IMG/VR virus record: IMGVR_UViG_3300047994_000617
Span: 64,626-128,625 of that record
Origin: a virus
Direction: 5' to 3' (one strand)
Length of the DNA: 64,000 nucleotides
Below the pieces are notes generated by a model. The model saw only the letters and a program-made list of their open reading frames with translations, made no database searches and was not told where the DNA came from. Below, in pieces: positions 29,391 to 58,357 of this stretch. The number at the start of each line of letters is the position of its first letter. The first letter of the stretch is position 1. The position numbers and the translations under genes were made by a program.

Positions 29391-32300
29391 ATGGGCGGCG
29401 AGAGCGGCAACGGGCAACCGCGGGGCGCTGGTGGCGCACCTGCACCGGCAGCGCCGACCCGCACCGGCGGGTTCGCGTCGTTGGGGCTCGCCCCGCGTCC
29501 GCCCGTGCCAGCCCCCGCTCCAGCCCCGTCGCCCGCGCCGCCCCCGCCGACCCGCACCAGCGGGTTCGCGTCGCTCGCCGGCCGCGCGCCGCCGGCTGCT
29601 CCGGGCGTTCGGGTGGCTTCTCCGGCGCCGGCGACTCCGCAGGCCCGCACCAGCGGGTTCGCGTCGCTCGCCGGCCGCGCGCCCGCTCCCCGCCCCCCGC
29701 CGCCGGCGCATCCCCCTGCTCATCCCCTGGTCCCGCCGATCACCGGGACCCCGATCGTCCGCTACGTCGGCGCCCTGCATCCCCACCTGACGGGCCTCGA
29801 AGGCCGCGTCATCACGTCGGCGAGCGGGAAAGCGACCGTGCAGTGGCGGCGCCCCGGCGGTGGCGTTCGCCTGGGGGATCGCCAAGACCCGGCGAGCTAC
29901 GCGTTCGCCGAGCTCGTCGTGCTGCCGGAAGGTTACTCCGAGGGCTTCAAGAACGCCGCGGAGCGCGAGCGGGCCACCGCGCCGGCGCCATCGGTGCGCC
30001 CCCCGTCGGCCCGTCCGGCCTCGTCGCGTGGCCCGTCGTCGCGCGAGGCGCGCGATCCGTTCGCGGAAGAGAACCCCCGCGAAGCGATCGTCCGGTACAT
30101 GGGGGCCGAGCCTTACCTCCGCCAGCTCGAGGGGCGCGTGGCCCAGCGCATCGGGCACGAGATCCTCGTGCTCTGGCGGCAACGCGGCGGAGCCAGGTAC
30201 GCGCTGCGCGCTGGGGAGCCGCGCTACGTGCCGTTCAAGGCGCTGCGCGTCCTCCACGGCTACAGCCCTGACTTCCGGCGCCCCGGCGAGACTTGGCCGG
30301 ACAGCCAGAGCGCTCGCGGCGACATCCCTTACCTGACCGCCCTGTTCGCGGCGCTCGGGGACGAGCGCCTGGCCGAGGACGCCTACACCGCCTTCCTGGG
30401 GGCGCGCCAGTGGGGGTGGCTCGACAACAAGATCAAGATCCGCCGGGTCAAGCTCGCGCTGGACAACTCCATCGGCGAGGGAGAGCGAAGCGACAGGGCG
30501 CTTCAGGCTCTGGCCGGCGTCGACGCGGAGGGGATGAAGTGGAAGGTCGGCGCCCGGGTCACCCTCGGCGCCCGTGGCGCCTACAGGGGGCGCAGCGGGA
30601 CCGTCATCGCCATCTCGCCCTTCCCCCGCTACGACAGCCGCGAGGTCGAGATCGATCCGGAGCCGGGGGACCCGGGGAAGATCGTCGAGGAGGTGCGCGT
30701 CGAGGACCTCGTGAACGGGCCCCTGGCGCCCGCGACGGGTCGCGCACAGTCCGCCGTGGGGGGCGTCGCCGCCGTCGCGCCGCCGGCCGCGGCGCCCGAG
30801 CCACCGGTCGTCCCGCCGCCCTCCCTCCATGAGGAGCCGGCCCCCGTGGCCGCGGCGCCGACGCCCGTCGTGGGTTCGATCCAGGCGCTCCGGGCGCTCC
30901 CCGTCGGCACGAGGCTCCGCCAGGTCAAGAACGTGCTGGGGACCGTCGAGCGCGGTGGCGGACGTCGGATCGAGGCGCAGAAGCCCAAGGGGATCGTCCT
31001 CAGGGTCGACGCACCGGGCACGAAGCACCACGGGGCGACGTCGGACATCACGTTCAGCAACCTGGGCAGCGTGGAGCCGCGCCCCCACGGCTTCGCGCTC
31101 TTGGACCGGAGCAAGCGGTTCCTCGCCGAGTACGTCGTGGAGGAGATCCCCCACGGGGCAGCCTCCCCCGCGCCGGCGGACGACCTGCGCGCCCGGATCG
31201 TGGCCTTCCTCCAAGGCAACCCCGAGTCCCAGATGGCCGTGATCGCCCGCGCCGTGGGAGGCCCGGACAAGCCTGGCCAGGACGCCGTGTTCGCCGAGCT
31301 CCGTGCGATGCGGGGCGAGGACGTCATCTGCCACGAGCCCAAGGACGGCCGCGGAAAGGTGTGCAGCCTGAAGGCAGCGCCCGCGGCAACCGCCCCGGCC
31401 GCGCCTCCCACACCCACGATGCCCGGCCAACCGCGCGCACACCACGTCGCGATCTACGGCGGCAAGGAAGTCGTCGTCGACTACGTGCCGGACCCCAGGC
31501 GCGAGTTCAGCGTCGCCGCGATGCGCGTCAACGACAATTTGCCCACGGGGAAAACCGGGCTCGTCGTCACGCCGAAGGGACAATACTTCCTCATCACGGA
31601 GGGTAAGCGGACCTCCCAGCTCATCGCGCCGGGAGATGTCCCCACCGCGCTCGCGAAGCACCTTCCGGGGACGACCATGCTGCCGGCGAAAGCTGCCGAG
31701 GCGCGCGCCGACCAGGAGACGCCCGGCGCGGCGGCCGTCTCGACGCCCCAGAGGGCCGCCGAGGTGCTGCGGGCGAACCTCGCGCCGAGGTTCGCCGGGC
31801 ACTACCTCGACATCACGGCCGAGCGAGGCGTCGGCATCACCGTCGCCAAGACGGCCCCGCACGAGAGGCTGGGGATCCCCTCGTCGAGCCTGCCCTACTC
31901 GATGAGCATCGCGCCCTCGCAGTACGCCACCAACGTCCAGTGGCGCGACCTGACCGTCAAGTTCACGGGGGGCGACGACCAAAAGGAAGCCCTAGAGGCC
32001 GCCGGCCTGACGGTGATCCGCCGGTCGAGCGACATGACGCCGGAGGCGGCCGTCGCCAAGGTGCTCGCCTGGCCCGGGTGGGAGACCCTGGTGGGGATCT
32101 ACAGCGCTGGCAACCAGGCTCCCGAGCCCGCGCACACGGCACCGGCCGCACCGTTCAACCCCCTCGTCGTCGTCCACGTCGGCGACACCCCCAAGCACCC
32201 GAAGTGGGCCGCGATCCGCGAAGCGCTCCGCGATCCGGGACCCGAGAATCGGGCGCTCGCCGCGACGCTGATCGAGGAGGTCAACAAGGATCGCCAGGCC

Positions 32301-35300
32301 GCGATCCGCCGGCAGATGGCCCGCGCCGCCATGGAGCACAACCGGGCCCGGCTCGAAGTCGCGGGACTCACCGTCGGCGAGCCGCTCGCCAGGGTGATGG
32401 CGAAGTGGATCGGCGAAGGCGTGCCGACGCCGCAGGACCTCGACGCGTGGATCGCCGAGGCGGGTCCGTGGACGCCCGAGCCGCCCCTCCCGAAGCCCGC
32501 GGCGCCCGCCTGGGATCCGGCGCGCAAGGAAAAGAACCTCCGCCCGGGGATGCGCCTCGTCCTTGAGCGCGGGGTCCACGAAAACAAGCGGACCTTTCTG
32601 TCGATGGAGCCGCACGTCCCGCGCGCAGCCGCGCCGCAGAAGAAGCGGAAGAAGGGCGACGCGCCCCCTCCTCCCTCGCAGCACGCGGCCCGCTGGAACT
32701 TCGTGTTCCGGATCGACGACATCGGCCCGAAGTACGGAGCGCTGGAGCGGATCGACGACGTGACCGTCGTCTGGGGCCCCAGGGGGTTCAAGCTGGTGAA
32801 CGCCGCCGAGGTCTACGTCTTCGGGGTCGACGCGACCGAAGCCGCGCCCCCGTCGGTCGGCACCTTGCGCGCCACGCTGACCGAAGAGCACCGGAAGGCC
32901 CGTGTCGCCTCTGAGGTCTACCACAAGGACCAAGCCGGCGACTGGCTCCACCATGTGCGGAGCATCCTCCGCACGGCGGAGGCAGGCCGCGCGGAAGACA
33001 AGGCACTCCGCGACGTCGAGGACGCGCTGGCGCTGCAGCAGGCCCCCTCGCCCAGGACGCTCGATCCGCTGCGCCTCGGGCGCCTGATCGAGGCCATGGA
33101 GGACGCCCAAGACTACGAGGGGCTCCGCGAGACCCTGATCGAAGCCCGCGAGCTGGGGGCCCACGGCGCCCCCTCCGGCCAAGCCGCCCTCTTCGTCGAG
33201 GCGAGCGCCATCGGCGACGAGCTCGGGCGGCTCAACAGGATCAAGTTCGATCCGCTGCGCGAGAAGGTCCGCAAGGCGGTGGCCCTGGCCCGCGCGCACG
33301 TCGACCGGAAGGGCCCGGCCTACGCGCAGGCACGGGATGCCCTGAAGGCCGCCATCGCCGCCTACCGGGCACGCCGCCCGGCCCAGGCGCCCGCGCTTCC
33401 CCCGGCCGAGCAGCACGCGGCCGCGCTGGTCGAGCACCAGGCCGAGGCGCTCTCCCGGAAGTTCGAGGAGAAGCCCCCCTGCGCAACCGAGGAGGGCGTG
33501 CTCGCTGCCACCGCCGGGGAGTACCGGACCGTCGAGGAGGTCTCGGGGCTGCTCGGGGGGTGCGATCCCGATCTCGTCCAGAAGGTACTCACCAAGCTCG
33601 CCGACGAGTTCAAGCTGCGGAAGACCTTCACCAAGGACAAGCCCACGCGCTGGGGGCACGACGTGCCGCCCCACCGCGAGGACTGGGCCGTCTACCGCCG
33701 CGGGGCCGACATCTACGGCGACACCTCCTTCCTGACGGCCTCGGGACAGCTCCCTGGCTTCTCCGTGAAGCACCTCGGCATGGGGGAGTTCGTGCTCAAC
33801 ACCCCCAGGGGCGAGGTCGAGTTCGACCGGATGCGCGGGGTCGACTTCCCGGGGCAGACGGGGCGCTCCCACCTGCTCTACGCCACCCAGAACCCCGAGG
33901 CGCTCGCGCTCCTGCTGAAGGAGATGCGCGTCGACGAGCGGCTGGCAGAGGAGGCAGCCCAGCAGCCTGCCGCGACGGCAGCCCAGCAGCCTGCTACGCT
34001 TACAGCCCAGCAGCCTGCTACGCCGGCAGCTCAGCAGCCTGCTGCCGGCGCGCCGGCCTCCGAACAAGCGGGGAGGCCGGGCTCTGCGCGGGAGGCCGCG
34101 GCTGCGCCGCACCGGCTCACCATGGCCGAGAAGGCCGCGGATCTCTGGGCAGCGTTCACGCCCAGCGAGCGCGCCGCGGTGGCGGCGGGGGGGATCTTCC
34201 CCGCCAAGCCGATGGAGCAGGCGGCGCGGGAGGGCTACGCCGGCCGGGAGCTGACCGTGGCCCTCATGGACCACGCCAAGCAGCAGAAGAGCGCCGAGCG
34301 GCAGGCACCCCACGGCAAGCCCGAGGGGAGGCCCGATCGGGTCCGCGCCGCGCTTCAGGAGACCTCCCAGCGCGTGGAGGCGGCCCGGAAGCCGACCACC
34401 GAGGCCGTGTCCTCCGCCGCCGGCGAGGCACGCGCCATCCAAGCCGCCGAGGACGCCGGCACCGTCTCGCCCGCCGCCATGGCCGGCGTGAAGCTCTCGT
34501 CCCCGCCCAACCCGGACGACGAGGCCGTCTCCGACATCTACGCGCCGGTCGAGCACCGGACGGCCGCTGCCCGCCGCGACGCGAACATCAAGGCCATGTG
34601 GCTCGCCTCGGACCTCGAGGCGCGCCCCCGGCCGCTCACCAACGACGACCGCCTGGTGCTCGCCGCCTACTCGGACTGGGGCGGCCTCGGGATCGAGAAG
34701 GCGGCGAGGAAGTTCCCGCCGGGCTTCCCGGTGCCGGAGAAGCGCCAGCTCATCCACGCCTACTTCACGCCGCCCTTCGTGTGCTCGGAGATCGCGCGCG
34801 TCACGCGGCCGTTGATCGCCGGCCTCGACGGGAAAGAGGAGGGGCGCATCCACGCCCTGGAGCCGTCCCTTGGCATCGGTCGCTTCCCCCTCGCCTTCTC
34901 GGGCCCGGGCTTCGAGGCCCTGTCCTGGCATGGGGTCGAATACTCCAAGCTCAGCTTCAAGATGGTCCGCGCCCTGCGGCCGGACATGGACCTCTACCAG
35001 GGTCCCTTCGAGAGCTGGGTCACCGAGAAGGGGCCCGAGTTCCAGGGGCGGCTGCGCCTTGTGGTGAGCAACCCGCCCTACGGCGAGCGCGGCCCTGCCT
35101 ACACCAAGGATCCGGATCGGAGCTACCGCGAGATTCGCGCGGACAACTACTTCCTCCGCCGTGGGCTCGATCTCCTCGGCGCCGGCGGGCTCGGGATCTA
35201 CATCATCCCATCGGGCTTCCTCACCGGCAAGACCGCCGACGCCCGCAAGATCCGCGAGCAGGTGCTGCGCCGCCACCATCTGTCGGCGGCCTTCCGGCTC

Positions 35301-38300
35301 CCCAACGAGGTGTTCAGCCTCGCCAATGTCGTCACCGACATCCTCTTCTTCCGCGCCCGCGGCGGCATCCTGGAGAAGGTCGACGAGGCGGACCAGTTCA
35401 TCCTCGACGGCAAATACTACGAGGCGTTCACGGACCACATCCTCGGTACGGTGGTCCCGAACCCGCCCCCCGAACCTGGGCAAGAGGGCAAGCGGCAGTG
35501 GCACACGAGCGCCGAGGGCTACACGGTCGTCGGCGAGTTCAAGGGGCTGCCTCCCGAACTCGAGGAGCGGCCGATGTGCGCCGCATGCGTGCACATGACG
35601 CCGGCGCCGGCGGCGGCCAAGCCGCGCAAGGCCGACAAGCCCCTCGGGCCCCCGCCGACGGCGGCGGAGGCGATGGTCGAGAACGATGAGCGCATGGCGG
35701 CCGCCGTCGGCCTCGGGCGCCGCGTCGAGAAGTTCCTGGCAACCGTTGCCAACCCCGACGTCGAGCCCGTGGGCTGGGAGGAGCTCCACGACGACCTGAC
35801 CCAGTGGGGCGCCAAGCATGGTCCGCCTGCGGCCGACAAGCCCGTCCTGGCGCTGGCCAAGGCCGAGCGCGGGCCGCTCGGCCAGGGGGCCCCTGGGGGC
35901 GCAGGCTGGCTCCTCAAGGCGTTCCTCGGCAAGTCGGCGACCCTGATCGAGCCCCTGGCTGAGAAGCCCTCGTGGATGCCCCGGTACACCGGCAACCCCC
36001 ACGACCCGCTTCAGGTGGGGGAGTACCTCTTCCGGAACAAGAAGGCGCTCACCATCGGCGAGCTGCCCGGCAAGGACGCCGCTCCGCTCTTCGCCGCCGG
36101 GTGGTGCGAGGACTCGACGGCGCCGGCGTGGGTCGAGCGCCTGGACTTCCGCGGGAACCTCTACCCGCCGGACGATTACATGTTCGGGGAGCTGTGGCCG
36201 CGGCTCGACCGGGCGAGGGCCCGCGCCGCTCTCGGCGACACTCAGGCCGCCGCCCAGGCGACGCGGCTCCTGGAGGCGATCCAGCCGGCAACCTTCGACG
36301 AGATCGAGGTGAGCCCCCAGGACGGCTTCGTGCCGCTCGACGTGCTCGGGGAGTGGCTGGACACGATCAACCACGGACACGACGCGCTCACCCTCGTCCG
36401 CGCGGACGGCATCGTCCACATGGCCGGCGTCCCTTACGACGAGCACCTCCCGGGCATCTCGGGGCTCTCGGACGTTGCGCTGATGTGCCTCGGCTGGATC
36501 AACCACGACTACGTGGTCTTCAAGCCGTCTGCCAAGGACGATGACGCTCAGCAGATCGACGCGGATCGACTCATGTACGCGCGCGAATGGACCGAGAAGT
36601 TCCGGGCCTGGCTTGACGCGCGCCCGAAGCCCCAGCGCGCCGTCGAGAATGCCTACCAGCGGGCCCGGCAGGGCTACCGGCAACACGCCTACGGAAGCGC
36701 GCCCCTCCGGCTCGCCCGCTGGAACCCGGCCGTCGTTCTGAACCCCCACCAGATCGCCGGGGCTCGCCGGGTCAACGCAAACAGGGCCGGCGGTCTTGGC
36801 TTCCAGGTCGGCGTCGGCAAGACCTACACGATCCTGGCCGCCCTGGCGCTCGCACGACAGGAAGGGCGGGCGCGCCGGCCCGTCATCTGCGCGCCCCAGA
36901 AGATCGCCTTCCAGTGGATGGCGAACATCAAGAAGGCGCTCCCCGACTTCCGCGTCGTCGTCATCGGCATCAACAAGACGAAGAAAAAGACCGGGGAGGA
37001 CTCCAGCGACACGGACTCCCCGGAGGAGCGCAGCCGCAAGTGGGCCCGCTTCATGGGCGGGGAGTTCGACGTCGCCGTCGTCACCTACGATTCGTTGCCT
37101 CGCACACTGATGGACGAGGAGTCCACCCTCAAGTTCGTGGAGGGCGTGACCGCCATCGAGCGCGAGGTCGCGCTCCGCGCGCGGAACGCCAAGAAATCGG
37201 TAAAGGGCGAGCTGAAGAGGTACGCGGAGGAGAAGGGCGTCATCGATCGGAGGATCAAAAAGCTCGAGGCCACGATTGAGAACCTCACGGACGCCACATG
37301 GCCATCGGCGAGGCCGAAGCTCGCGAAGGCTCGCCAGGACCTCGCGGTGGCCCAGGCGAAGCTGGAGGTCCTCGACAAGAAACACCTCGGGTCGCTGACC
37401 GAGCGCCAGGACGCGATCCTGGAAGAGACCGTCGGCAGGTTCATCGCGGAGATGACCGAGCTCCCGGGCACATGGAAGCCGGACCCCGACATCATCTGGA
37501 ACAAGATCGGCGTCGATTGGATCGCCTTCGACGAGGCGCACAACGGCAAGAACCTGCACATGCCGGCCGACCGCGAGGGCGGCAGCGTGCCCAAGTACAT
37601 GGGCAACGCGGGCGACGGATCGAAGCGCGCATGGCACTGGTTCTTCCGGTGCTGCGACGTCCAGTCCCGCGGCGGCGAGGTCGTGCTGGCGACCGCGACG
37701 CCGGCCTCCAACAGCCCATTGGAGTTCTACAACCTCGTCAAGCTGATGGACAAGGACGCCTGGACCCGGATCGGGATCTACGATCCAGAGGCGTTCATCG
37801 ACAGGTTCTGCATCCTCCAGATCGAGGAGGTCATGAACGCCGAGATGGAGGTCGAGCAGCGCTTGGCCTGTGTCGGCTTCAAGAACGCGGACGAGCTCCG
37901 CTCGGTCATCTACCGGCTCTGGGAGTTCAAGACGGCCAAGCAGGCAGGTCTCAAGCTCCCCGCGGTGACGCAGGAGCGCGTCTTCGTCGACATGGATGCC
38001 GCCCAGGAGCAGAAGTACGTCGATTACGTCAAGGCCATCGAGGACGAGCTCTCCAAACCCAAGATCCCGGGCCAGAAGAGCGGCAAGATCCTCGGCCTGC
38101 TCGCCCGCATGGCGATGGTGTCCATGCACAGCCAGCTCGACGAGGGCTTCAAGTGGAAGACCGCGGGCGCCGTCGACAACCCGCACTCGCCGAAGTTCGA
38201 CGCGCTCGCCAACAACATCCTCAAGATGCCCCACTGCGGGCACATCGTCTTCGCCGACTACATCGCGGCCCACGCATGGATCCGCGACGTGCTCGTCGAG

Positions 38301-39674: not shown

Positions 39675-40597
39675 CGAAGCGCGCACTGCCGTTGACCGCG
39701 AGCGTCGTGATCCAGCGGGTGAAGCAGGGGGGCGACCTCCGCGGCCACCGCATCCTGGAGTTCGAGAGGTACTATGTGCGCGCCGTACCCGGCGGCCGGT
39801 GGGAAGCCTGTCGCTACGCGGCGATCGAGACCCCCCTGCGGCTCACCACAGGGGAGGCGGCCATCGTCCAAAACCTCGGCCAGCCCGGGAAGACGCCGCA
39901 GGACGCGGCGCGCCGCATGTGGAAGTTCGCCACGGAGCGCGCAGCGGCCGAAGGCGTGTGGCTGGTGGATGACGACCTCCCCGAGGCGCTGCGGGCCGGC
40001 GTCAACCTGATGCCGCTGGAGAAGGCCTTCGCCATCCACGACGCGATCGCGATGAGCCGGTCGGCGGGGATCGACGCGGGGACCTTCATGGAGCGGCACG
40101 CAACGCGCGAGCGCGCAGCGAGCGAGCCGGACATCTGGCGCATCTTCCGGGGCCGCGTGTGCGTCGGCGACTTCGGCGGCGGCAACGAAGACGAGGCGGT
40201 CGACGTGGCCGTGCGCGCGGGTGCGACGAAGCGGGGCGAGCGGGGGCTCAGGGTGGTTCGGCGCGACCTGGCTCGGCTCTTCGCCGCGGCCGAGGCGCAC
40301 GGCGAACAGTCGGAGCCCGAACACGAGATCGGCGACCTCCAGGGCTACGTGCAGAGCGCGTGGGACGTCCTCACATCAAGCCAACGGCGCGAGGTGTACG
40401 GCGCTCACGGCCCGGAGACGTCCGACCTCGCGTCCTTCGGGACACTGATGTCGCACGCATCCGGCTCTCGGCACGAGGCGGCGACGCTGCGCGCCATCCT
40501 GATCACCTGTTGGGCCCTCCTGCCGCGTGCGCAGCGCCGGGCCGTCTATGAGAGGCACGCCGCTGACGTCGCCGAGTGGCTTCCGGAGGGCGCATGA
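39671..40597 (+). CDS. Hypothetical protein with RIFRGR..GxFGG module
   Basis: ATGA coupling; module shared with the next gene. Confidence 0.65.
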   Translation: MTKRALPLTASVVIQRVKQGGDLRGHRILEFERYYVRAVPGGRWEACRYAAIETPLRLTTGEAAIVQNLGQPGKTPQDAARRMWKFATERAAAEGVWLVDDDLPEALRAGVNLMPLEKAFAIHDAIAMSRSAGIDAGTFMERHATRERAASEPDIWRIFRGRVCVGDFGGGNEDEAVDVAVRAGATKRGERGLRVVRRDLARLFAAAEAHGEQSEPEHEIGDLQGYVQSAWDVLTSSQRREVYGAHGPETSDLASFGTLMSHASGSRHEAATLRAILITCWALLPRAQRRAVYERHAADVAEWLPEGA

Positions 40598-41328
40598 AGG
40601 GCCCCCGGTTCGCGATCCACACCCGCGACGGTGAGGCCGTCTCGGTCGTCACGGCCCGGAACGAGACGGCGGCTTGGAATAAGCTCGCCCACCAACAAGG
40701 CCTCGGCGACGCCAGGCGCGCCGACGCCATGGCACCAGGCTGGCGGGACCGCTTTGTCGTGACGGACACGCGGGACCTACACACATGGAGGATCGTCACG
40801 ACGAAGGGCGCGCAGAACATGGGGGCGTTCCTGGCGCGCACGGCGGCGAGCGCGCTGGACGTGCTGGCCCACAAGCAGCGCTTCCGGAGCGCCAAGCATG
40901 CGGAGGCCCACGAGGCCGGCTGGGCCAAGCGCTACCGGGTTGCGCTTGAGACCGTAGCCGGTGGCCAGGGGGCCGCGAACGACAGTCGCGTATCGGCAGC
41001 AGACTCCGACGTCGAGGACTTCGCCGTGTTCAAGGATGTCGCGACGGGCTGGGGTCCTCCCAAATGGGAGCGCGTCGGCACGGTGTCAGCCGCCACCCCC
41101 GACGATGCCGCGATCGCTGCCAGGTCCCGCTGGTCGGCGGAGGATTCGCTGATGCTTCGGCCGCTCGGGAAGCCTCAATACGGCACCTTCCGCATCTTCC
41201 GGGGTCGCGCGGACCTCGGAGTTTTCGGAGGACGCGACGAGGCCGGGGCGCTCGACGTCGCAGTGCGGGCGGGGACGATCAAGCGGGGCGAGCGCGGGCT
41301 CCGGGTGGTGCAGGAGCGGACCAGATGA
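40594..41328 (+). CDS. Hypothetical protein with RIFRGR..GxFGG module
   Basis: ATGA coupling at both ends. Confidence 0.65.
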   Translation: MKGPRFAIHTRDGEAVSVVTARNETAAWNKLAHQQGLGDARRADAMAPGWRDRFVVTDTRDLHTWRIVTTKGAQNMGAFLARTAASALDVLAHKQRFRSAKHAEAHEAGWAKRYRVALETVAGGQGAANDSRVSAADSDVEDFAVFKDVATGWGPPKWERVGTVSAATPDDAAIAARSRWSAEDSLMLRPLGKPQYGTFRIFRGRADLGVFGGRDEAGALDVAVRAGTIKRGERGLRVVQERTR

Positions 41329-50921: not shown

Positions 50922-50982
50922 CCTCCGGTGTCCAGCGTTCGATGGGCGATCCGCGCGGCACGCGCCGAGGGAGGGTCCCGTC

Positions 50983-51706: not shown

Positions 51707-51723
51707 CCGATACCGGAGGAATC

Positions 51724-52197: not shown

Positions 52198-52211
52198 TCG
52201 GAGCACCGTCG

Positions 52212-53117
52212 ATGGAGCCCTCGTCCAAGCTCGCGGGCTTCGCGCTCCTCGGCCAATCGCTCCCGGTGGCGCGGATCTTCGTGGCGATCCCCGTCCCGGC
52301 CGATCTGGGCGCATCTCTGGGCCGGGCGACCGCCCGCACCCGGAGCTCCGCGCCCGCCGCCCGGTGGACGGCGCCGGCGGCGCTGCACATCACCCTCGCC
52401 TTCCTCGGCGACGTCCCCTTCGCGCGCCTGCCGGAGGTCCTCGGCGCTTGCTTCGAGGTCACCCTGCAGCACGCCCCGATCGATCTCGTGTGCGTCGGCG
52501 CTGGCGTCTTCAAGGGTAAGCGCCCCAAGGTCCTCTGGGCCGGCCTGATCGGCGCCACGGCCGCGCTCGAGGCGGTCCACCGGGATCTCCTCGCCAGCCT
52601 CCAGCCCCTCGGCGTCCCGCCCGCGCAGCACCCCTTCGCGGCGCACATCACCCTGGCGAGGGCCGAGGACCCCAACGGCGACCCGGCGCTCGTCCGGTGC
52701 GCCTCGGCCCTCCAGGACAGCGACTTCGGCGCCATGCGCGCCGCCGAGATGGTGCTCTACCGGAGCGACGGTCCGCCGCGGCACCACGCCTACACGCCGA
52801 TCGCGCGGCTCCCATTCCGGGGGCGCGATGGGGCGTCGGCGAAGCCAGCGTTGGAGGAGTTGGAGGAGCGCATCCGGGCGGCCTACCTCCGGGTGACCGG
52901 CGGGAAGCTGAACGAGAGCGTGACCCTGGCCAAGCTCCGCGCCGAGCTCCCCGGCGCGCCCAGGGAGGCCGTGGACGAAGAGCTCCGCCGGATGCAGCAG
53001 GAGCACGTCGCGGTGCTCTACCCGATCGATGACCCGCGGCGGCTCCGGCCCGAGGACCACGCCGCGGCGATGAGGGTCGCCGGAGAGCGGCGCGACATCG
53101 TGGCCCTGACGAGGTGA
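52212..53117 (+). CDS. 2H phosphoesterase (ThpR/2'-5' RNA ligase family) + C-terminal helical domain
   Basis: RIFVAI..LHITLAFLG..VLWAG..FAAHITLAR..LYRS; both HxT motifs intact. Confidence 0.85.
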   Translation: MEPSSKLAGFALLGQSLPVARIFVAIPVPADLGASLGRATARTRSSAPAARWTAPAALHITLAFLGDVPFARLPEVLGACFEVTLQHAPIDLVCVGAGVFKGKRPKVLWAGLIGATAALEAVHRDLLASLQPLGVPPAQHPFAAHITLARAEDPNGDPALVRCASALQDSDFGAMRAAEMVLYRSDGPPRHHAYTPIARLPFRGRDGASAKPALEELEERIRAAYLRVTGGKLNESVTLAKLRAELPGAPREAVDEELRRMQQEHVAVLYPIDDPRRLRPEDHAAAMRVAGERRDIVALTR

Positions 53118-53120
53118 TGG

Positions 53121-54296
53121 GTGGCCGTCTCGCGCAGGCTGGAGGGGTTCGCGCTTCTCGGGGTCGCTGCCGCGCCCGCGCCGGAGAGTGCGCGCCTCGC
53201 CGGCTTCGCCCTTCTGCGGCCAGCGCCGGCGCCGGCACCCGAGAGCGCGCGCTTCCGCGGCTTCGCCGCGCTCGCCGCCGTCCCCGGGCCGATGACGCTG
53301 CAGCGCTTCGTCTCCCTGCCCCCGTCTCAGCGGCCCCTCCTGGTGGTGGCCGACGGAATGGGCCTCGATTCCTCCGGGGTGCTGGAGGGTCTTCGTCGGC
53401 TCGGTGTCCGCCCCGACGTCATCCAGCACGCCGACACCGGCGACGAAGGAAAGAAGACCGTCGCCTTCCGCGAGGTCCGCCAGGCCTGGCTCCGAAGGAT
53501 CGGCTTCCCCGAGTTCGTGCTGGTGAAGCGACCGCCGGGCATCTCGGGCAAGACGGGCATGTTCTTCGAGACGCTCGGCGAGAAGTGCATCGCCTACGAC
53601 ACCCTCCCCGGCCACGCCTTCGGGAAGAAGAGCTGCTCGAAGGAGTGGAAGATCGAGCCCCAGGAGACGTGGCTGGCGAAGTACCCGCCCGCCAAGGCGC
53701 TCTGGGACCGCGGCGACAAGGTGGTGAAGGCGATCGGGTACGACGCGGGGCCGCTCGACTCCCGCCGGGCCCACAAGCTCACCAACGACGACCGCTACGA
53801 ATACATCTACCCCCTCCGCGAGTGGGGTTGGGACCGGGCCCGCATCCGCGCCGAGCTCGCGGCGGTGGGGGCGCCCATCCCGCCCAAGAGCGCCTGCACC
53901 TTCTGCCCGGCGGCGAAGCCCTGGGAGATCGCGGAGCTCGTACGCGACGAGCCTGAGAAGGCCGATCAGATCGTCGCAATGGAGGATGCCGCCCGGCCGG
54001 GCCTCCGGGGCATCGAGGGGCTCTGGGGCGAGGGACGCAAGGGCTTCCGGATGGTCAAGGGCGTCCCCAAGCCCACAGGCGCCATCGCGCGCCCTGGGTC
54101 GATGGCGCTCTTCATCCGCCAGCTCCGCGCCGACCCCGCCCTGCTCGAGCACTACCTCGCCATGCGGCCCCCGGAGCCCGTCTACCTCGGTCCGGTGGGC
54201 GGCATCCCGCGGTTCCGGGGACCCACCAACGACGCGCCCCCTTCGCGCCGGCGCCTGCCACTCGTCGAGCATGAGCCGCTCTCGGAGGCTGGATGA
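53121..54296 (+). CDS. PP-loop (PAPS-reductase/DndC-like superfamily) protein
   Basis: GMGLDS, HADTGDE, CSKEWKIEP, IGYDA, YPLREWGWDR and KSACTFCP. Confidence 0.7.
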   Translation: MAVSRRLEGFALLGVAAAPAPESARLAGFALLRPAPAPAPESARFRGFAALAAVPGPMTLQRFVSLPPSQRPLLVVADGMGLDSSGVLEGLRRLGVRPDVIQHADTGDEGKKTVAFREVRQAWLRRIGFPEFVLVKRPPGISGKTGMFFETLGEKCIAYDTLPGHAFGKKSCSKEWKIEPQETWLAKYPPAKALWDRGDKVVKAIGYDAGPLDSRRAHKLTNDDRYEYIYPLREWGWDRARIRAELAAVGAPIPPKSACTFCPAAKPWEIAELVRDEPEKADQIVAMEDAARPGLRGIEGLWGEGRKGFRMVKGVPKPTGAIARPGSMALFIRQLRADPALLEHYLAMRPPEPVYLGPVGGIPRFRGPTNDAPPSRRRLPLVEHEPLSEAG

Positions 54297-55168
54297 CCTC
54301 CGCGCGCCTCGCCGGCTTCGCCCTGCTCGGGACCCGTCCGCCTGCGCCCGCGACCGACTGGAGGGCGTTCTCGCGGGCCCTGAAGAAGCTGCTCTGGGGG
54401 CCGCTGTTGTCCATGCTCCACCCGCTGGGCGATGCCGGATGGAACGACGGCGGCTGCAGAGTGCTCGCAGACGCCAATCTCCTCTGGCTCCCCCGAGCGA
54501 CGCGGTACGTGGTCACCGGCACGCACGACCACGGGCCTGGCGGCCCCGCCAAGGTGCAGCACGTGCTCGTGCGGGTCGGGGATCGTTACCTCGACGGCGA
54601 CGGGGCCTCGACAGAGGCCACGCTGCTGAAGCGCTGGCGCACCCAGGAGGACGTGGCGAACGCGCGGCTCGCGCCCGATCCTGCTGGGCTCTTCGCCGAT
54701 AGCGCCGAGGAGATCCCCCAGGACCGCGAGATGTCCGAGGAGATTGCTGCGGTGCTCCGCAACAAGCTCTCGGCCCTGATGCCCGCGGACGCGCGGCCCG
54801 CCGCCGCGCTGGTGATCGCCCAGACCGCCGAGGGCCTCTTCGCCGCGATCCGCAGCCACAAGCACGGGGGCAGGGTCTGCTTCCCCGGCGGCACGATCGA
54901 GCCGCGCGAGACGCCCGCCCAGGCGGCCGCCCGCGAACTGGGGGAGGAGACCGGCCTCGAGGCTGGCCCGATGAAGCACCTCGGGACGCGGGACGACAGC
55001 GAGCACGTCTGCGCCCTCTTCCTGGCCCCCGCCTGGCACGGGGCGCTCCGTTCCTCCCGGGAGGGCGAAGCCTTCTGGGCAACCGAACGAGACCTGACGG
55101 GGGCCTCGTCGGCCTTCCCCGAGTTCAACCGCTGGGCCTTCGAGCGCCTGGCTGCAAAGGCGACATGA
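54293..55168 (+). CDS. Unknown N-terminal domain + Nudix hydrolase
   Basis: Nudix box GTIEPRETPAQAAARELGEETGL. The N-terminal domain has GGC..LA / HVLV / YLDGDG (Cys-His-Asp spacing). Confidence 0.8.
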   Translation: MTSARLAGFALLGTRPPAPATDWRAFSRALKKLLWGPLLSMLHPLGDAGWNDGGCRVLADANLLWLPRATRYVVTGTHDHGPGGPAKVQHVLVRVGDRYLDGDGASTEATLLKRWRTQEDVANARLAPDPAGLFADSAEEIPQDREMSEEIAAVLRNKLSALMPADARPAAALVIAQTAEGLFAAIRSHKHGGRVCFPGGTIEPRETPAQAAARELGEETGLEAGPMKHLGTRDDSEHVCALFLAPAWHGALRSSREGEAFWATERDLTGASSAFPEFNRWAFERLAAKAT

Positions 55169-55470: not shown

Positions 55471-57161
55471 GCCGCCCAGCGAAGCCCAAGGCGCAGAACG
55501 CGGAGGTCGTGCGTCCCAAGCGCGGAGCGCCGGCGGGCACCGTCGCCGCAGATGCGGCGAAGGACGGGAAGTGGCCGGAGGACACCCTCGGGATCCTGAC
55601 CCTGATCCAGGAGCACCAGGGATCCGGCGCGAAGAAGTGGGGCGCCAACCACGAGGGCTTGCCCCGGGCAACGATCGACCGCCTCGTGCGTGAGCAGCTC
55701 GTCCAAGAAGTCTTCATGAGCGGGCTGCCCGTGACGACGAAACATCCCCGCAAGCACTTCCCCACGCTGCTCATCACGACCGACGCCGGGGACGCGCTCG
55801 TCGCCACCGGGAACGACGGGGCCGCGGCGGTCGGGACCGCGCCAGCGCCGCCCGACGCCGATGTCCAAGAGGAGCAGCCTCCTTTGAGGGCCGCGCGCCC
55901 CGCCGGCTCTCTGGCCGCGGACGCAATCCGCTGGGCGAACCGCACCCGCGAGCAGGTGGCCCGGCTCACCGCGACCGAGCGCGAGACGTTCTACGAGATT
56001 CACGCGGCGGAGACCCTCCGTATCGCCATCCAGGCGGCCAAGAAGGCCAAGATCCCCGAGCCCGAGCGGGAACTCGTCGCGCGCGCAGCGCTGGCCTCGC
56101 ACCCCGAGCTCCGCCCCTTCCTCGAGGTCCTCCCGGCGGAGGGCAGCACGCTGCCGGGCGCGCCGGTGGTGCTCGTCGCCTGCGCCGCCCAGAAGGTCGA
56201 TACGCACGGGCAGCGCGTACCCGCGGCCGATCTCTACTCGTCCCCCCTCTTCCGCAAGAGCCTCGCCTACGCCCGCGCGATCACCTCCGAGGACAACATC
56301 CGGATCCTCTCTGCGCGGCACGGAGTGATGCGCCTCGACGACCGCATCGGGACCTACGAGACCCCGATGAGCAAGCTCAGCAAGCGCGAGAGCAGTGCGT
56401 GGGCAGAGCGGGCGCGCAACACGATCATGTCGGAGTTTGGGCACGAGCGGTCGCGTCAGGTCGTCTTCCTCGCCGGCGACGACTACGAGATCGGCCTGCC
56501 CGGGCAGTGGCTGGTGGCGCGCCCCCTGGCGGGCAAGTCGATCGGCCAGCGCCTCCACTGGCTCAACGACCAGCTCCGTGCTCTCGGGGCCTCCGAGACG
56601 CCCGCTCCCAAGGTCGCGCCGCCGCGGCGCGCACAGATCCGCCTGAATACGAAGGGACGGCCGTGGCGCGACGTCGAGGCCCTCGCCTGGAACGGCGACC
56701 TCTTCATCCACGAGGACAACGAGGACCCGGACATCCTCCGGGTGACGCACGCGCCGACCGGCCGGATGATGCCGGATCCCTTCTCGGATCTCGTATCCGC
56801 CCTGTCGTTCGCCGTAGAGCTGAACGATCCCGCCGTCCGCCCAGCGCTCGACGCGCTCATCCAGGCCACCGCGAAGCGAGGAAAGGACGCGATCACCGTT
56901 GCCGGGAGACGTCTGCGGCAGGTGCTGGACGCGAGGGAGGCTGCGCGTGGTCGCGCGGCGGCGCCGGCGCCGCTGGACGAGGCTCCGCCATCGTCCCAGC
57001 TCGCCCTCGCTCCTGATGCGCCGCCTGCACCGGCGCGGGCTCGCACGGCTGGCTTCGCCCTGCTCCGGGCCATCCCCCGTCCACCCGCCACGCCGCCGGC
57101 GCGTCTCGCCGGGTTCGCCCTACTCGCTTCCCTCCCGGCGGGGAGGTCGGCCGCCGGATGA
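55467..57161 (+). CDS. Multidomain protein with DUF6884-like domain
   Basis: VVLVACAAQK..PAADLYSSPLFRKSLAYA..ILSARHG..FLAGDDY..PLAGKSIGQRLHWL. Confidence 0.7.
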   Translation: MSRPAKPKAQNAEVVRPKRGAPAGTVAADAAKDGKWPEDTLGILTLIQEHQGSGAKKWGANHEGLPRATIDRLVREQLVQEVFMSGLPVTTKHPRKHFPTLLITTDAGDALVATGNDGAAAVGTAPAPPDADVQEEQPPLRAARPAGSLAADAIRWANRTREQVARLTATERETFYEIHAAETLRIAIQAAKKAKIPEPERELVARAALASHPELRPFLEVLPAEGSTLPGAPVVLVACAAQKVDTHGQRVPAADLYSSPLFRKSLAYARAITSEDNIRILSARHGVMRLDDRIGTYETPMSKLSKRESSAWAERARNTIMSEFGHERSRQVVFLAGDDYEIGLPGQWLVARPLAGKSIGQRLHWLNDQLRALGASETPAPKVAPPRRAQIRLNTKGRPWRDVEALAWNGDLFIHEDNEDPDILRVTHAPTGRMMPDPFSDLVSALSFAVELNDPAVRPALDALIQATAKRGKDAITVAGRRLRQVLDAREAARGRAAAPAPLDEAPPSSQLALAPDAPPAPARARTAGFALLRAIPRPPATPPARLAGFALLASLPAGRSAAG

Positions 57162-58357
57162 CCTCGGCGCGCACCGCAGGCTTCGCCCTGCTCGGGCAGC
57201 TCCCCTTTCCCGGGACGACGCCGGCGCCGACGCCTGCCCGGGCGCGGCGGGGGACGACGGGACTGCCCCAGGCCCCGACGAAGCGCCAGTTCCTGGCGCG
57301 GATGCTGATCGAGCAGTTCCCGACCCTCCGCTACGACTTCGCGCCGAGCGCGGACTTCGACACGCCCCCTGTGGACCCCCTCTCGTACGACCACATAATC
57401 GTGGCGTTCAGCGGGGGGAAGGACTCCCTCGCTCTGGTGCTGCTCCTCCTGCTCCTCGGCGTCCCCAAGGACCGGATCGAGCTCTGGCACCACGAGGTCG
57501 ACGGTGGAGAGGGCGAGGGGCCCGGCGGTCGGACCTCGACCCTCATGGACTGGCCTTGCACGCCGGCCTACTGCGCAGCCGTCGCCCAGGCCCTCGGGCT
57601 CAAGCTCTACCGCTCTTGGAAAATCGGCGGTTTCGAGATGGAGATGCGCAAGGAGAACGCGCCCACCGCGGGCTACCTCTTCGAGCGCCCGGACCGGAGC
57701 TTCGAGCGCGGGGGAGGTCCGAGCGACGACGGGACCCGACGCATGTTCCCGGCGAAGGTCGGGGACCTCGGCAAGCGCTGGTGCAGCGCCTACCTGAAGA
57801 TCATGGTCGCGGACATCATCCTCCGCAACGAGCCACGCTTCCACGGCGCGCGCACGCTGGTGCTCACCGGCGAGCGGGGCGAGGAGTCCTCGAAGCGCGA
57901 CACCTACAAGGTCTTCCAGAAGCACCGGGCCGACCTCCGTGACGGCCGGGTCCCACGTCTGATCGACCAGTGGCGCCCGGTGCTGCGCTGGCCCGAGCCC
58001 GAGGTCTGGAAGCTGATCGAGCGCTTCAAGATCAACCCGCACCCCGCGTACCACCTCGGCTGGGGGCGCGTCTCGTGCGCCGCGTGCATCTTCGGCAGCC
58101 CCAACCAGTGGGCTTCGATCCAAGCGATCAACCCGGCGCAGTTCGACCTGATCGCGGCCTACGAGGACGACTTCGGCCACACGATCGACAACCACCGAAG
58201 CGTGCGGGAGATGGCGGCGCTCGGCACCCCCTTCCCCGGGATGCAGGCCCGGCACATCCGTGCCGCACTCTCCCGCACCTACGACGAGCCCGTGTTCGTC
58301 GACCCCTGGACCCTGCCTCGAGGTGCGCTGCTCGGCGACGCATCCGGGCCCATCTGA
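57158..58357 (+). CDS. PAPS-reductase-family (PP-loop) protein of the phage/mobile DNA-modification type
   Basis: AFSGGKDS, RWCSAYLK, GERGEES..R, RPVLRW and HPAY..G.GRVSCAACIF. Confidence 0.85.
   Translation: MTSARTAGFALLGQLPFPGTTPAPTPARARRGTTGLPQAPTKRQFLARMLIEQFPTLRYDFAPSADFDTPPVDPLSYDHIIVAFSGGKDSLALVLLLLLLGVPKDRIELWHHEVDGGEGEGPGGRTSTLMDWPCTPAYCAAVAQALGLKLYRSWKIGGFEMEMRKENAPTAGYLFERPDRSFERGGGPSDDGTRRMFPAKVGDLGKRWCSAYLKIMVADIILRNEPRFHGARTLVLTGERGEESSKRDTYKVFQKHRADLRDGRVPRLIDQWRPVLRWPEPEVWKLIERFKINPHPAYHLGWGRVSCAACIFGSPNQWASIQAINPAQFDLIAAYEDDFGHTIDNHRSVREMAALGTPFPGMQARHIRAALSRTYDEPVFVDPWTLPRGALLGDASGPI

What the first reader, a model, noticed from the sequence alone, without database searches (positions are those of the whole stretch)
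29460..57193. A shared terminal peptide tag (R-x-x-G-F-A-[LSA]-L) on six unrelated nucleotide/DNA enzymes: candidate packaging, delivery or assembly signal
Seen in sequence: 11 copies in Pro/Ala-rich, probably disordered termini. DarB-like giant, N-terminus: RTGGFASL 29460, RTSGFASL 29553 and 29646. 2H phosphoesterase: KLAGFALL 52227. PP-loop 1: RLEGFALL 53136, RLAGFALL 53193, RFRGFAAL ~53250. Nudix: RLAGFALL 54305. DUF6884 protein, at the C-terminus: RTAGFALL 57042, RLAGFALL 57102. PAPS-reductase-like: RTAGFALL 57170. Codons vary synonymously between copies (ggc/ggg, gcc/gcg, ctc/ctg/ctt/cta) and every copy is in frame, so the constraint is on the peptide. I did not see it in the lysins, fibres, holins, regulators or early genes. 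Established: P1 DarA/DarB are packaged in the head and injected, and T4 internal proteins use a short capsid-targeting sequence. Inference: this is a multivalent address tag that loads anti-defence/DNA-modifying enzymes into the virion or onto a common scaffold. I know of no described motif like it.
Basis: partly seen in the sequence, partly recalled or inferred. Interest (0 to 1): 0.92.

Follow-up and report, generated by a model that had tools for sequence, protein, structure and literature searches.

The report
Private docking tag on six enzymes
Six separately encoded DNA- and nucleotide-handling enzymes of a large integrated virus carry the same eight-residue peptide on floppy ends, most likely an address tag that gathers them on one viral partner that is still unidentified.

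Summary
All 11 copies of R-x-x-G-F-A-[LS]-L are at the stated places. The strict pattern gives 12 hits against 0.037 expected, and it is the top shared motif in the 128.6-kb provirus. A tag profile separates the 11 copies (14.7-24.6 bits) from everything else (2.5 bits or less).

New findings:
- Orthologues in related elements carry differently spelled tags at the same positions, and the spelling matches across two enzyme families.
- More distant homologues carry the canonical sliding-clamp motif there instead (14 of 70), or are fused into polyvalent giant proteins.
- This element puts canonical clamp motifs on three replication-module proteins. The tag is therefore a second, private code.

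Best reading: a multivalent docking tag for one element-encoded partner. I put about 0.8 on that. The destination is unresolved: about 0.4 for the particle or co-delivery, about 0.25 for a hub on replicating DNA. No receptor was found, and no capsid, portal or terminase family was detected.

The scan has noted similar private docking tags on phage enzymes in other genomes. This is a new variant of a known kind.

The parts
29391..39674 (+). Giant 1 (3427 aa): N6-adenine methylase plus SNF2 helicase. Three N-terminal tags spaced 31 aa apart.
   Evidence: Pfam N6_Mtase/Eco57I, SNF2-rel_dom, Helicase_C; tags at residues 24, 55, 86
29460..29483 (+). tag copy RTGGFASL
   Evidence: 14.7 bits
29553..29576 (+). 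tag copy RTSGFASL
   Evidence: 16.0 bits
29646..29669 (+). tag copy RTSGFASL
   Evidence: 15.9 bits
52194..53117 (+). 2H (LigT-like) phosphoesterase with one N-terminal tag. Start is GTG 52194 or ATG 52212.
   Evidence: Pfam LigT_PEase 1.3e-20
52227..52250 (+). tag copy KLAGFALL
   Evidence: 20.4 bits
53121..54296 (+). PP-loop / PAPS-reductase-like protein 1 with three N-terminal tags spaced 19 aa apart
   Evidence: phrog_424 7.2e-17; Atlas look-alikes named PAPS reductase; no Pfam hit
53136..53159 (+). tag copy RLEGFALL
   Evidence: 19.6 bits
53193..53216 (+). tag copy RLAGFALL
   Evidence: 21.4 bits
53250..53273 (+). tag copy RFRGFAAL
   Evidence: 19.1 bits
54293..55168 (+). Nudix hydrolase with an unknown N-terminal domain and one tag at residues 5-12
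   Evidence: Pfam NUDIX 2.5e-16; GGAGG upstream of the ATG
54305..54328 (+). tag copy RLAGFALL
   Evidence: 22.7 bits
55467..57161 (+). DUF6884 (YaaA-like) protein. The C-terminal tail holds a conserved clamp-like motif followed by two tags.
   Evidence: Pfam DUF6884 2.1e-31; tail aligned with orthologues
56997..57014 (+). QLALAP, within PPSSQLALAP: a second short motif, conserved in orthologues whose tags differ. Candidate host-clamp motif.
   Evidence: P0125 has PPPSQLSVSLP and P0126/P0127 have PPSEQLSVRAP at the same place
57042..57065 (+). tag copy RTAGFALL
   Evidence: 19.2 bits
57102..57125 (+). tag copy RLAGFALL
   Evidence: 18.7 bits
57158..58357 (+). PAPS-reductase-like protein 2 with one tag at residues 5-12
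   Evidence: Pfam PAPS_reduct 1.1e-9; phrog_424 5.5e-28; GGAGG upstream
57170..57193 (+). tag copy RTAGFALL
   Evidence: 24.6 bits

Best explanation
The peptide is a private docking ('address') tag. One to three copies sit on disordered Pro/Ala-rich ends of six enzymes that act on DNA or nucleotides: a methylase-helicase giant, a 2H phosphoesterase, two PAPS-reductase-like PP-loop enzymes, a Nudix hydrolase and a DUF6884 protein.

The copies most likely bind one partner encoded by the element itself. Separately encoded enzymes would then be gathered into one assembly. That would be the non-covalent counterpart of the giant 'polyvalent' fusion proteins in which the same enzyme domain occurs in other phages.

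I commit to the particle, or the DNA that goes into it, as the most likely destination, so that the enzymes travel with the genome. I put about 0.4 on this. The next most likely destination is a hub on replicating viral DNA.

The tag is not the host sliding-clamp motif. The element uses the canonical clamp motif on other proteins, and the DUF6884 protein has a conserved clamp-like motif beside its tags.

Shown: the motif, its excess over chance, its restriction to one gene block, its positional orthology with differently spelled tags, and the clamp motifs or fusions in homologues.

Inferred: that the tag binds anything, that the partner is element-encoded, and the destination. I put about 0.8 on 'docking tag for one shared partner' regardless of destination.
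For: 1. Real and non-random. 12 pattern hits against 0.037 expected. Top shared motif in the proteome. A profile gap of 14.7 bits for the weakest copy against 2.5 bits for the best non-copy. Synonymous codon variety between copies.

2. Positional orthology with a lineage-private spelling. Three DUF6884 tails align as [PPS-x-QL..], then a linker, then the tag or tags. The tag is RxxGFALL x2 here, WGSVLGRPL x2 in P0125 (58% identity), and PFAALAELL in P0126/P0127 (49% and 48% identity).

3. Co-variation across enzyme families. P0126/P0127 (DUF6884) start M-A-x-S-F-Q-x-L-V-E-Q-L-A-P followed by AFGALAELL x2. PAPS-reductase homologues P0003-P0005 start M-x-x-S-F-x-A-L...L-A-P-P followed by DF(T/M)(T/A)LAALL.

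4. The tag is a class apart from the clamp motif. 3 of 124 proteins of this element have Q..[LIM]F in their last 20 residues: g50 methyltransferase-like (QLDLF), g54 5'-3' exonuclease (QLAMF) and g55 (QPTLF). The expectation is 0.17, and 0 of 2000 random draws reach 3. All three are in the replication module and none carries the tag.

5. The fused state exists. In 7 of 7 long ORFs tested from low-GC phage contigs the PAPS_reduct domain is C-terminal. In L052 it follows ART-PolyVal and DUF3140, in L049 a ParB_N-like stretch, and in L051 topoisomerase IB and hemerythrin. The polyvalent-protein paper predicts that such proteins are packaged and injected, and it lists 2H phosphoesterase domains as constituents of polyvalent proteins. 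NUDIX appears in the passages I saw only as a neighbour or fusion partner of related InPase domains (PMC5512222, passages).

6. Precedent for an N-terminal signal on a methylase-helicase giant. The first 30 residues of P1 DarB suffice to send a reporter into the P1 capsid (PMC9024508, abstract and section 3.3 passages). T4 internal proteins share a capsid targeting sequence (PMC3012670, passages).

7. Module context. The tag occurs only between window 29.4 and 58.4 kb. This is a tightly spaced co-directional block that starts after a histone-H1-like protein, holds two giants and ends in a GH25 muramidase. An untagged DUF6884 paralogue sits in the structural module, and giant 2 shares a 130-aa stretch with a 2103-aa structural-module protein.
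Against: - No receptor was identified.
- No Phage_capsid, Terminase_6N, Phage_portal or Linocin_M18 family was found in six-frame searches of the record. None of the large structural-module proteins matched Pfam or PHROGs head families. That a particle of known type exists therefore rests only on the collection's 'provirus' label and a CheckV estimate of 81%.
- Homologues of the tagged PAPS-reductase carry the canonical clamp motif at the same N-terminus: 14 of 70 with an extension of 5 or more residues, 0 hits in 38,817 core residues, and 0 in reversed extensions. A distant DUF6884 protein ends in QMSLF. This argues for action on clamp-loaded DNA inside the cell.
- PAPS-reductase genes in other phage contigs lie near DnaB (5 loci).
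- A tag-like N-terminus on g15, the gene after DnaB, would put a client in the replication module.
- Known capsid-targeting sequences are single and N-terminal. Here copies are repeated, and two are C-terminal.
- Timing of expression is unknown. Promoter and terminator scans gave nothing usable.
- The host proteome could not be scanned, so a host partner is not excluded.
Confidence: 0.4

Rival explanations
1. Docking onto a hub on replicating viral DNA, for example the element's own DnaB helicase or another element-specific replisome or DNA-bound protein. The tag would be a private stand-in for, or adjunct to, the sliding-clamp motif. It would aim DNA-modifying and nucleotide-processing enzymes at viral forks rather than at all clamp-loaded DNA.
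For: - Canonical clamp motifs sit at the same termini in homologues: 14 of 70 PAPS-reductase homologues, further loci with QLSLDIF, QTELF or QTDLF, and DUF6884 P0128 ending in QMSLF.
- A conserved QL[AS][LV] motif lies beside the tags in three DUF6884 orthologues.
- All clients act on DNA or nucleotides. DUF6884 is described as YaaA-like and DNA-binding, with a predicted base-flipping mode (PMC11701544, passage).
- There is a tag-like N-terminus on g15, whose gene overlaps the end of DnaB.
- PAPS-reductase genes lie near DnaB in 5 fetched loci.
- Earlier notes of this scan read similar private tags in other phages as clamp docking. These are leads only.
Against: - None of the replication-module enzymes carries the tag. 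That set includes three methyltransferase-like proteins (g3, g22, g50), the exonuclease g54 and the helicases. g50, g54 and g55 use the canonical motif instead.
- The tag is confined to the giant and muramidase block.
- No clamp family was found in the record: PF00712 and PF02768 both gave 0 matches.
- No hub was identified.
- g15 scores only 2.0 bits.
Confidence: 0.25
2. The tags act as 'stickers' without a dedicated receptor. Arg plus Phe/Leu stickers in Pro/Ala spacers would make the six enzymes associate with each other or with a membrane, forming a co-assembly or condensate.
For: - The architecture is one of stickers and spacers, with 1-3 copies at regular spacings of 19-31 aa in Pro/Ala-rich linkers.
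- No receptor was found.
- The record encodes several membrane proteins next to the cluster.
Against: - Valency is low: three proteins have a single copy.
- G, F and A are invariant and the final L is invariant across 11 copies. That is tighter than expected for generic hydrophobic stickers or membrane helices.
- Eight residues are too short for a membrane-binding amphipathic helix.
Confidence: 0.1
3. A non-canonical host sliding-clamp motif: G-F-A-L-L would occupy the same hydrophobic cleft as QL(S/D)LF.
For: The tag is positionally equivalent to canonical motifs in homologues. A review notes that the bacterial consensus tolerates much variability (PMC9690074, passage).
Against: - The same element writes canonical motifs on g50, g54 and g55.
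- The DUF6884 tail holds a conserved QL-type motif and the tags side by side.
- The tag lacks Gln, and in the giant it has Ser where the motif needs Leu.
- Tag spelling changes completely between lineages with 49-58% identical enzymes, whereas the neighbouring QL motif is kept.
Confidence: 0.06
4. A peptide that binds a ParA-type ATPase, like the N-terminal tails of ParB or ParG partners. The tagged enzymes would ride on the element's own ParA-like protein bound to DNA.
For: - The record encodes a ParA-like ATPase (AAA_31 1.4e-19, CbiA 1.3e-18) at window 61769-62413(-) but no ParB_N.
- Next to it is a ribbon-helix-helix-like partner with a basic N-terminal tail followed by S-F-G-T-L.
- 10 of 11 tags begin with Arg and one with Lys.
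- Four of the six proteins carry a tag within their first 15 residues.
Against: - The tag profile does not pick up the partner's tail among its 40 best sites in the proteome.
- No rationale links six enzymes to a partition ATPase.
- The cassette looks like an ordinary partition module beside the serine recombinase.
Confidence: 0.05
5. A recognition signal for turnover or folding (a protease degron or a chaperone-binding site) that limits or assists these enzymes, rather than localising them.
For: The tags are terminal, exposed, hydrophobic and flanked by a basic residue. The element encodes protease-like domains: a weak C39-like match in giant 2 (0.0013) and a transglutaminase-fold protein.
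Against: - The copies are repeated and often tens of residues from the end.
- Spelling is lineage-private and co-varies, which would not be expected for conserved host proteases or chaperones.
- In homologues the tags are replaced by a localisation motif, the clamp motif.
Confidence: 0.05
6. No function: a linker segment spread among neighbouring genes by duplication or gene conversion.
For: Copies within one protein are near-identical at the DNA level. Copies 2 and 3 of the giant are identical over 24 nt.
Against: - Between proteins the codons differ synonymously while the peptide is kept.
- The flanks are not conserved.
- Related elements keep a tag at the same place with another spelling.
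Confidence: 0.04

Closest known systems
Bacterial beta-clamp-binding motif, QL(S/D)LF, and the clamp 'tool-belt' (PMC9690074, passage seen)
   Same: It is a short peptide on disordered termini shared by many otherwise unrelated DNA enzymes. Homologues of two tagged families carry the canonical motif at exactly these termini.
   Different: The tag has no Gln, is repeated up to three times, and is spelled differently in each lineage. It coexists in this element with canonical motifs on other proteins, and with a QL-type motif in the same tail.
[quoted passage not shown]
   Same: It is a short terminal signal that loads diverse anti-defence proteins into a particle. One client here is a methylase-helicase giant with N-terminal copies.
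   Different: Here the copies are multiple, and two are C-terminal. No head, portal, terminase or prohead protease family was detected. P1 Dar proteins share no consensus according to that paper, whereas here the consensus is strict.
Encapsulin cargo-loading peptides and microcompartment encapsulation peptides
   Same: Several different cargo enzymes share one short peptide, sometimes repeated, on Pro/Ala-rich disordered ends.
   Different: No encapsulin shell family (PF04454) and no HK97-type capsid family (PF05065) is present in the record.
Polyvalent proteins of phages and conjugative elements (PMC5512222, abstract and passages)
   Same: The enzyme repertoire overlaps. 2H phosphoesterase domains are listed in the paper as polyvalent-protein constituents, and NUDIX is named there as a neighbour or fusion partner of related InPase domains. 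PAPS_reduct is fused to ART-PolyVal, a ParB_N-like stretch or topoisomerase IB in fetched loci. Giant 1 itself joins a methylase and an SNF2 helicase.
   Different: Here the small enzymes are separate genes that share a tag instead of a polypeptide chain. 'PAPS reductase' has 0 occurrences in the paper's main text, and its supplements were not seen.
Earlier notes of this scan on private docking tags of large phages (AI notes, unchecked)
   Same: Unrelated DNA enzymes of one phage share a short terminal peptide that relatives spell differently at the same places.
   Different: Those notes mostly name a phage-encoded sliding clamp as receptor and describe one copy at the very end. Here no clamp is encoded, canonical host-clamp motifs are used in parallel, and copies are repeated.

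Membership tests
Beta-clamp-binding motif (QL(S/D)LF type) | Consensus Q-L-(S/D)-L-F, or a near variant Q-x-x-(L/I/M)-F | tested here: not met
   0 of 11 tags contain Gln or fit Q..[LIM]F. Three other proteins of the element do fit it at their C-termini.
Beta-clamp-binding motif (QL(S/D)LF type) | Lies on an exposed terminus or linker of a DNA-acting protein | tested here: met
   All 11 copies lie in Pro/Ala-rich terminal stretches of DNA or nucleotide enzymes.
Beta-clamp-binding motif (QL(S/D)LF type) | Binds the hydrophobic cleft of the host clamp | not testable with these tools
   The host genome was not available. The record holds no DnaN.
Capsid targeting sequence (T4 IP / P1 DarB type) | Single N-terminal signal of about 10-30 residues | tested here: inconclusive
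   Five of six proteins carry the tag N-terminally. However, two proteins have three copies each, and the DUF6884 protein has two C-terminal copies.
Capsid targeting sequence (T4 IP / P1 DarB type) | A head with scaffold or prohead machinery encoded by the same element | tested here: not met
   PF05065, PF03237 and PF04860 each gave 0 matches at E<=1 in six frames. There were no head families among the structural-module proteins tested. The record is estimated 81% complete, so absence is not proven.
Capsid targeting sequence (T4 IP / P1 DarB type) | Tagged proteins are found in purified particles | not testable with these tools
   This needs proteomics.
Encapsulin cargo-loading peptide | Shared short peptide on disordered ends of several cargo enzymes | tested here: met
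Encapsulin cargo-loading peptide | Encapsulin shell gene in the same locus | tested here: not met
   PF04454 gave 0 matches and PF05065 gave 0 matches.
ParA-activating N-terminal peptide (ParB/ParG type) | Cognate ParA-type ATPase encoded by the element | tested here: met
   AAA_31 and CbiA hits at window 61769-62413(-).
ParA-activating N-terminal peptide (ParB/ParG type) | Resembles the tail of the ATPase's own partner | tested here: inconclusive
   The partner tail has basic residues followed by S-F-G-T-L. The tag profile does not list it among its 40 best sites.
Polyvalent proteins | Several effector domains in one polypeptide | tested here: not met
   The five small enzymes are separate genes. 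Only giant 1 joins a methylase and a helicase.
Polyvalent proteins | Domain repertoire shared with known polyvalent proteins | tested here: met
   PAPS_reduct is fused to ART-PolyVal in L052. 2H phosphoesterase is named as a polyvalent-protein domain in PMC5512222 passages. NUDIX is named there only as a neighbour or fusion partner of related InPase domains.

The most novel reading that the evidence does not exclude
A 128-kb provirus of no recognisable head type uses two address codes on its enzymes. The canonical host-clamp motif serves replication-module proteins. A private, multivalent cargo tag assembles separately encoded anti-defence and DNA-modifying enzymes into a non-covalent 'polyvalent' complex. 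That complex is loaded with the DNA into the particle and delivered to the next host. Related elements rewrite the private code together with its unknown receptor.
Probability: 0.3. Interest if true: 0.85.

Novelty: new variant of a known kind. Interest (0 to 1): 0.6.

Why it matters
If the tag is a docking code, three things follow.

1. It gives a simple handle for finding what these poorly understood phage enzymes work with: PAPS-reductase-like PP-loop proteins, DUF6884, Nudix and 2H. Peptide pull-downs or tag-reporter fusions could be used.

2. It shows that one enzyme family can be deployed in three interchangeable ways: fused into polyvalent giants, hooked to the host sliding clamp, or hooked by a private tag.

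3. It offers a portable tag for loading foreign proteins onto the same partner.

A by-product may matter more widely. About a fifth of the extended N-termini in the phage PAPS-reductase-like family carry a canonical clamp motif. This suggests that this widespread family of unknown function works on clamp-loaded DNA.

Tried and rejected
Profile search for the tag. A tag profile (A1) was run over 1.84 billion representative proteins. Only 2 proteins had E<=0.001 (P0122 and P0123). Both are long proteins with many tandem units containing GFASL, unlike anything here, and I treat them as irrelevant. The window's own three-copy proteins were not returned, so the search has little power for 1-3 copies.

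Word search. Nudix residues 1-40 gave 47 candidates, of which only the protein itself passed E<=10.

Related loci in viral contigs.
- PAPS-reductase: 4 distant loci without tags.
- DUF6884: none.
- PP-loop 1: none.
- P0009: none.
- P0002: the same 4 distant contigs.
- P0126: none.
- Alignment A2: 80 loci, best 54% identity. I read the N-termini of only the first 33 of the 80, and none had a private repeated tag.

Genome and metagenome contigs gave 27 and 30 loci. Only L036 (62% identity) carries lineage-C tags, and its neighbours have no Pfam or PHROG hit.

Complex prediction. ParA-like dimer with ATP and Mg plus Nudix residues 1-30 scored 0.00 in two runs. The verdict was 'no answer' and the controls were not run. 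This counts neither for nor against binding.

Structure prediction. g118 (165 aa, single sequence) gave mean pLDDT 43, which is unusable. No fold search was made.

Atlas. PP-loop 1 looks like PAPS-reductase clusters. g15 gave no usable hit.

Other checks.
- Promoter and terminator scans were uninformative.
- The SH3-like stretch of P0125-P0127 has no counterpart in this proteome.
- PF00712, PF02768 and PF02195 gave no match in the record.
- PDB sequence searches with g16 and g50 gave no match.
- The host proteome could not be scanned. The record holds only the provirus. The 684,557-bp contig named could not be fetched.
- Supplements of the papers were not opened. Those of PMC5512222 may list PAPS-reductase-like domains.

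Full report
THE RECORD

The window is the second half (64626-128625) of a single 128,625-bp record with 72% G+C. The collection classes it as a provirus, and CheckV estimates it 81% complete. A GC3-based gene call gives 123 genes, almost all on the + strand.

- The first half holds a replication module: DnaB, three methyltransferase-like proteins, helicases and a 5'-3' exonuclease. It also holds an FtsK-type ATPase followed by large proteins with no family match.
- The window holds a SpoIID-domain protein, spike-like paralogues and a minus-strand block with Rha-like, TPR and kinase genes.
- From 27.4 kb a tight co-directional block follows: a histone-H1-like protein, giant 1, two small proteins, giant 2 (serpin plus a weak C39-like match), membrane proteins, the five small tagged enzymes, two small proteins and a GH25 muramidase.
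- A ParA-like ATPase with a ribbon-helix-helix-like partner and a serine recombinase close the record.

THE OBSERVATION

- The strict pattern occurs 12 times in 39,818 residues, against 0.037 in shuffles with a maximum of 1 in 2000.
- G-F-A-x-L occurs 13 times in all six frames of the 128.6 kb. All 13 are in the window on the + strand.
- A word count that knew nothing of the motif ranks it first.
- A profile of the tags scores the 11 copies at 14.7-24.6 bits and nothing else above 2.5 bits.
- That profile dismisses the internal RPHGFALL of giant 1 (-1.2 bits). It weakly flags the N-terminus of g15, the gene after DnaB (2.0 bits; R-L-D-G-F-R-T-L followed by a Pro/Ala stretch).
- Codons vary synonymously.
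- Ribosome-binding-like sequences precede three of the N-terminally tagged genes.
- Spacing between copies within a protein is 31, 31, 19, 19 and 20 residues.

THE CLIENTS

- Giant 1 has N6-methylase, SNF2 and helicase-C domains.
- The others are LigT-type 2H, NUDIX, DUF6884 and PAPS_reduct.
- PP-loop 1 matches phrog_424, as does the PAPS-reductase-like protein, so two of the six are related.
- DUF6884 is described as YaaA-like and DNA-binding, with a predicted base-flipping mode (PMC11701544, passage).

RELATIVES

The exact tag is rare elsewhere. A word search with the Nudix N-terminus found only itself. A profile search of 1.84 billion proteins found only two irrelevant repeat proteins, though it has low power for 1-3 copies.

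Orthologues were decisive. The three closest DUF6884 relatives align with this protein in the tail as a conserved P-P-S-x-Q-L-(S/A)-(V/L) motif, then a short linker, then one or two tags. The tag reads RxxGFALL here, WGSVLGRPL (twice) in P0125, and PFAALAELL in P0126/P0127.

P0126/P0127 also begin with M-A-x-S-F-Q-x-L-V-E-Q-L-A-P and two AFGALAELL copies. The PAPS-reductase homologues P0003-P0005 begin with almost the same first motif followed by D-F-x-x-L-A-A-L-L.

So the place of the tag is kept, its spelling is lineage-private, and within a lineage two different enzyme families share the spelling.

THE CLAMP CONNECTION

Among the 120 listed PAPS-reductase homologues, one lacked the core landmark and 49 had fewer than 5 residues before it. 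Of the 70 with a longer extension, 14 carry Q..[LIM]F in the extension, mostly within the first dozen residues. There were 0 hits in 38,817 core residues and 0 in reversed extensions.

More such N-termini appear in fetched loci. A distant DUF6884 protein ends in QMSLF. QL(S/D)LF is the bacterial clamp-binding consensus (PMC9690074, passage).

This element itself has Q..[LIM]F in the last 20 residues of 3 of 124 proteins: g50, g54 and g55, all in the replication module. The expectation is 0.17, and 0 of 2000 draws reach 3. No DnaN is encoded, so these motifs presumably address the host clamp.

The tag is therefore a second code. It is used on a different module, and in the DUF6884 tail it stands next to a conserved QL-type motif.

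THE FUSED STATE

In low-GC phage contigs the PAPS_reduct domain is the C-terminal part of long ORFs. All 7 of 7 tested have it. Partners are ART-PolyVal plus DUF3140 in L052, a ParB_N-like stretch in L049, and topoisomerase IB plus hemerythrin in L051.

These are polyvalent proteins in the sense of PMC5512222, which predicts packaging and injection for the phage-borne ones. That paper lists 2H phosphoesterase domains among their parts and names NUDIX as a neighbour or fusion partner of related InPase domains (passages).

INTERPRETATION

The data fit a docking peptide that binds a fast-evolving partner, hence probably one encoded by the element.

- The tag is restricted to the giant and muramidase block.
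- There is the polyvalent parallel.
- P1 DarB has a proven N-terminal capsid signal (PMC9024508), and T4 has a capsid targeting sequence (PMC3012670).
- An untagged DUF6884 paralogue sits in the structural module, and giant 2 shares a stretch with a structural-module giant.

For a hub on replicating DNA:
- Homologues carry clamp motifs at the same termini.
- All clients have DNA or nucleotide chemistry.
- g15 has a tag-like N-terminus.
- PAPS-reductase genes neighbour DnaB elsewhere.

Against the particle: no head, portal, terminase or encapsulin family is detectable.

Against the hub: the replication-module enzymes do not carry the tag.

I put 0.8 on a docking tag for one shared partner. Within that I put 0.4 on particle loading or co-delivery and 0.25 on a replication or DNA hub. 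The rest is split among the smaller rivals.

WHAT IS KNOWN

The principle is known from clamp motifs, capsid targeting sequences and cargo-loading peptides. This scan has also noted private tags in other large phages (unchecked notes).

New here:
- A canonical code and a private code coexist in one element, and in one tail.
- The tag is repeated.
- One enzyme family shows a three-way interchange between fusion, clamp motif and private tag.
- The virus shows no recognisable head genes.

My literature searches for the term pair 'clamp-binding motif' plus 'PAPS reductase' (0 papers) and for clamp-binding motif, phage and methyltransferase (4 papers, none on this) found no description.

Noticed in passing
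L006:17110-17124 (g50), L007:2522-2536 (g54), L007:3091-3105 (g55): Canonical clamp-binding-type motifs (QLDLF, QLAMF, QPTLF) lie at the C-terminal ends of a methyltransferase-like protein, a 5'-3' exonuclease and a 160-aa protein of the replication module. No DnaN is encoded, so the element probably recruits the host clamp.
   Followed up: partly
proteins P0008-P0110; loci L009, L037, L042, L064, L089, L092: The phage PAPS-reductase-like family (phrog_424) often starts with a canonical clamp motif: 14 of 70 extended N-termini. I found no paper describing this with the two searches made.
   Followed up: partly
L005:12171-12194 (g15, the gene after DnaB): The N-terminus reads R-L-D-G-F-R-T-L followed by a Pro/Ala stretch. 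It may be a degenerate extra copy of the tag on an acidic helical protein of unknown function.
   Followed up: partly
window 61078-62413 (-): A ParA-like ATPase sits next to a ribbon-helix-helix-like partner. The ParA frame stays open to 61445, but the coding signal (GC3) switches at about 61758 to the partner's frame. This is either a 314-nt overlap or a frameshift. No ParB_N was found in the record.
   Followed up: partly
window 27660-29384 (+): A 574-aa protein has about 15 tandem P-A-S-K-K units and A-K-K-T repeats, like histone H1 or HC2. It lies directly upstream of giant 1 and is a candidate DNA-condensing protein.
   Followed up: no
window 41325-50921 (+): Giant 2 (about 3200 aa) holds a full serpin domain (1.2e-104) and a weak C39-like peptidase match. 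It carries no tag. It shares a 130-aa stretch (32% identity) with the 2103-aa structural-module protein g64.
   Followed up: no
window 39671-41328, 58369-59702 (+): A small repeated domain (W/F-x-I-F/Y ... G-x-F-G-G ... A-x-x-V-A-x-R-A-G) occurs in g105, g106 and g118, and apparently twice in g117. These are all untagged proteins interleaved with the tagged genes. A single-sequence model of g118 was unusable (pLDDT 43).
   Followed up: partly
window 1929-3173 (+): An untagged DUF6884 paralogue (37% identical over 138 aa to the tagged one) lies among the spike-like and lytic genes of the structural module.
   Followed up: no
whole record G000 (L007:6838-8331 for the ATPase): No Phage_capsid, Terminase_6N, Phage_portal or encapsulin family was detected. 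An FtsK/SpoIIIE-type ATPase (3.7e-33) stands before the structural block. The particle type is unknown, and a conjugative-type element is not excluded.
   Followed up: partly
window 15067-16665 (+); L005:9818-10651: The element encodes a Ser/Thr protein kinase and a PP2C phosphatase.
   Followed up: no
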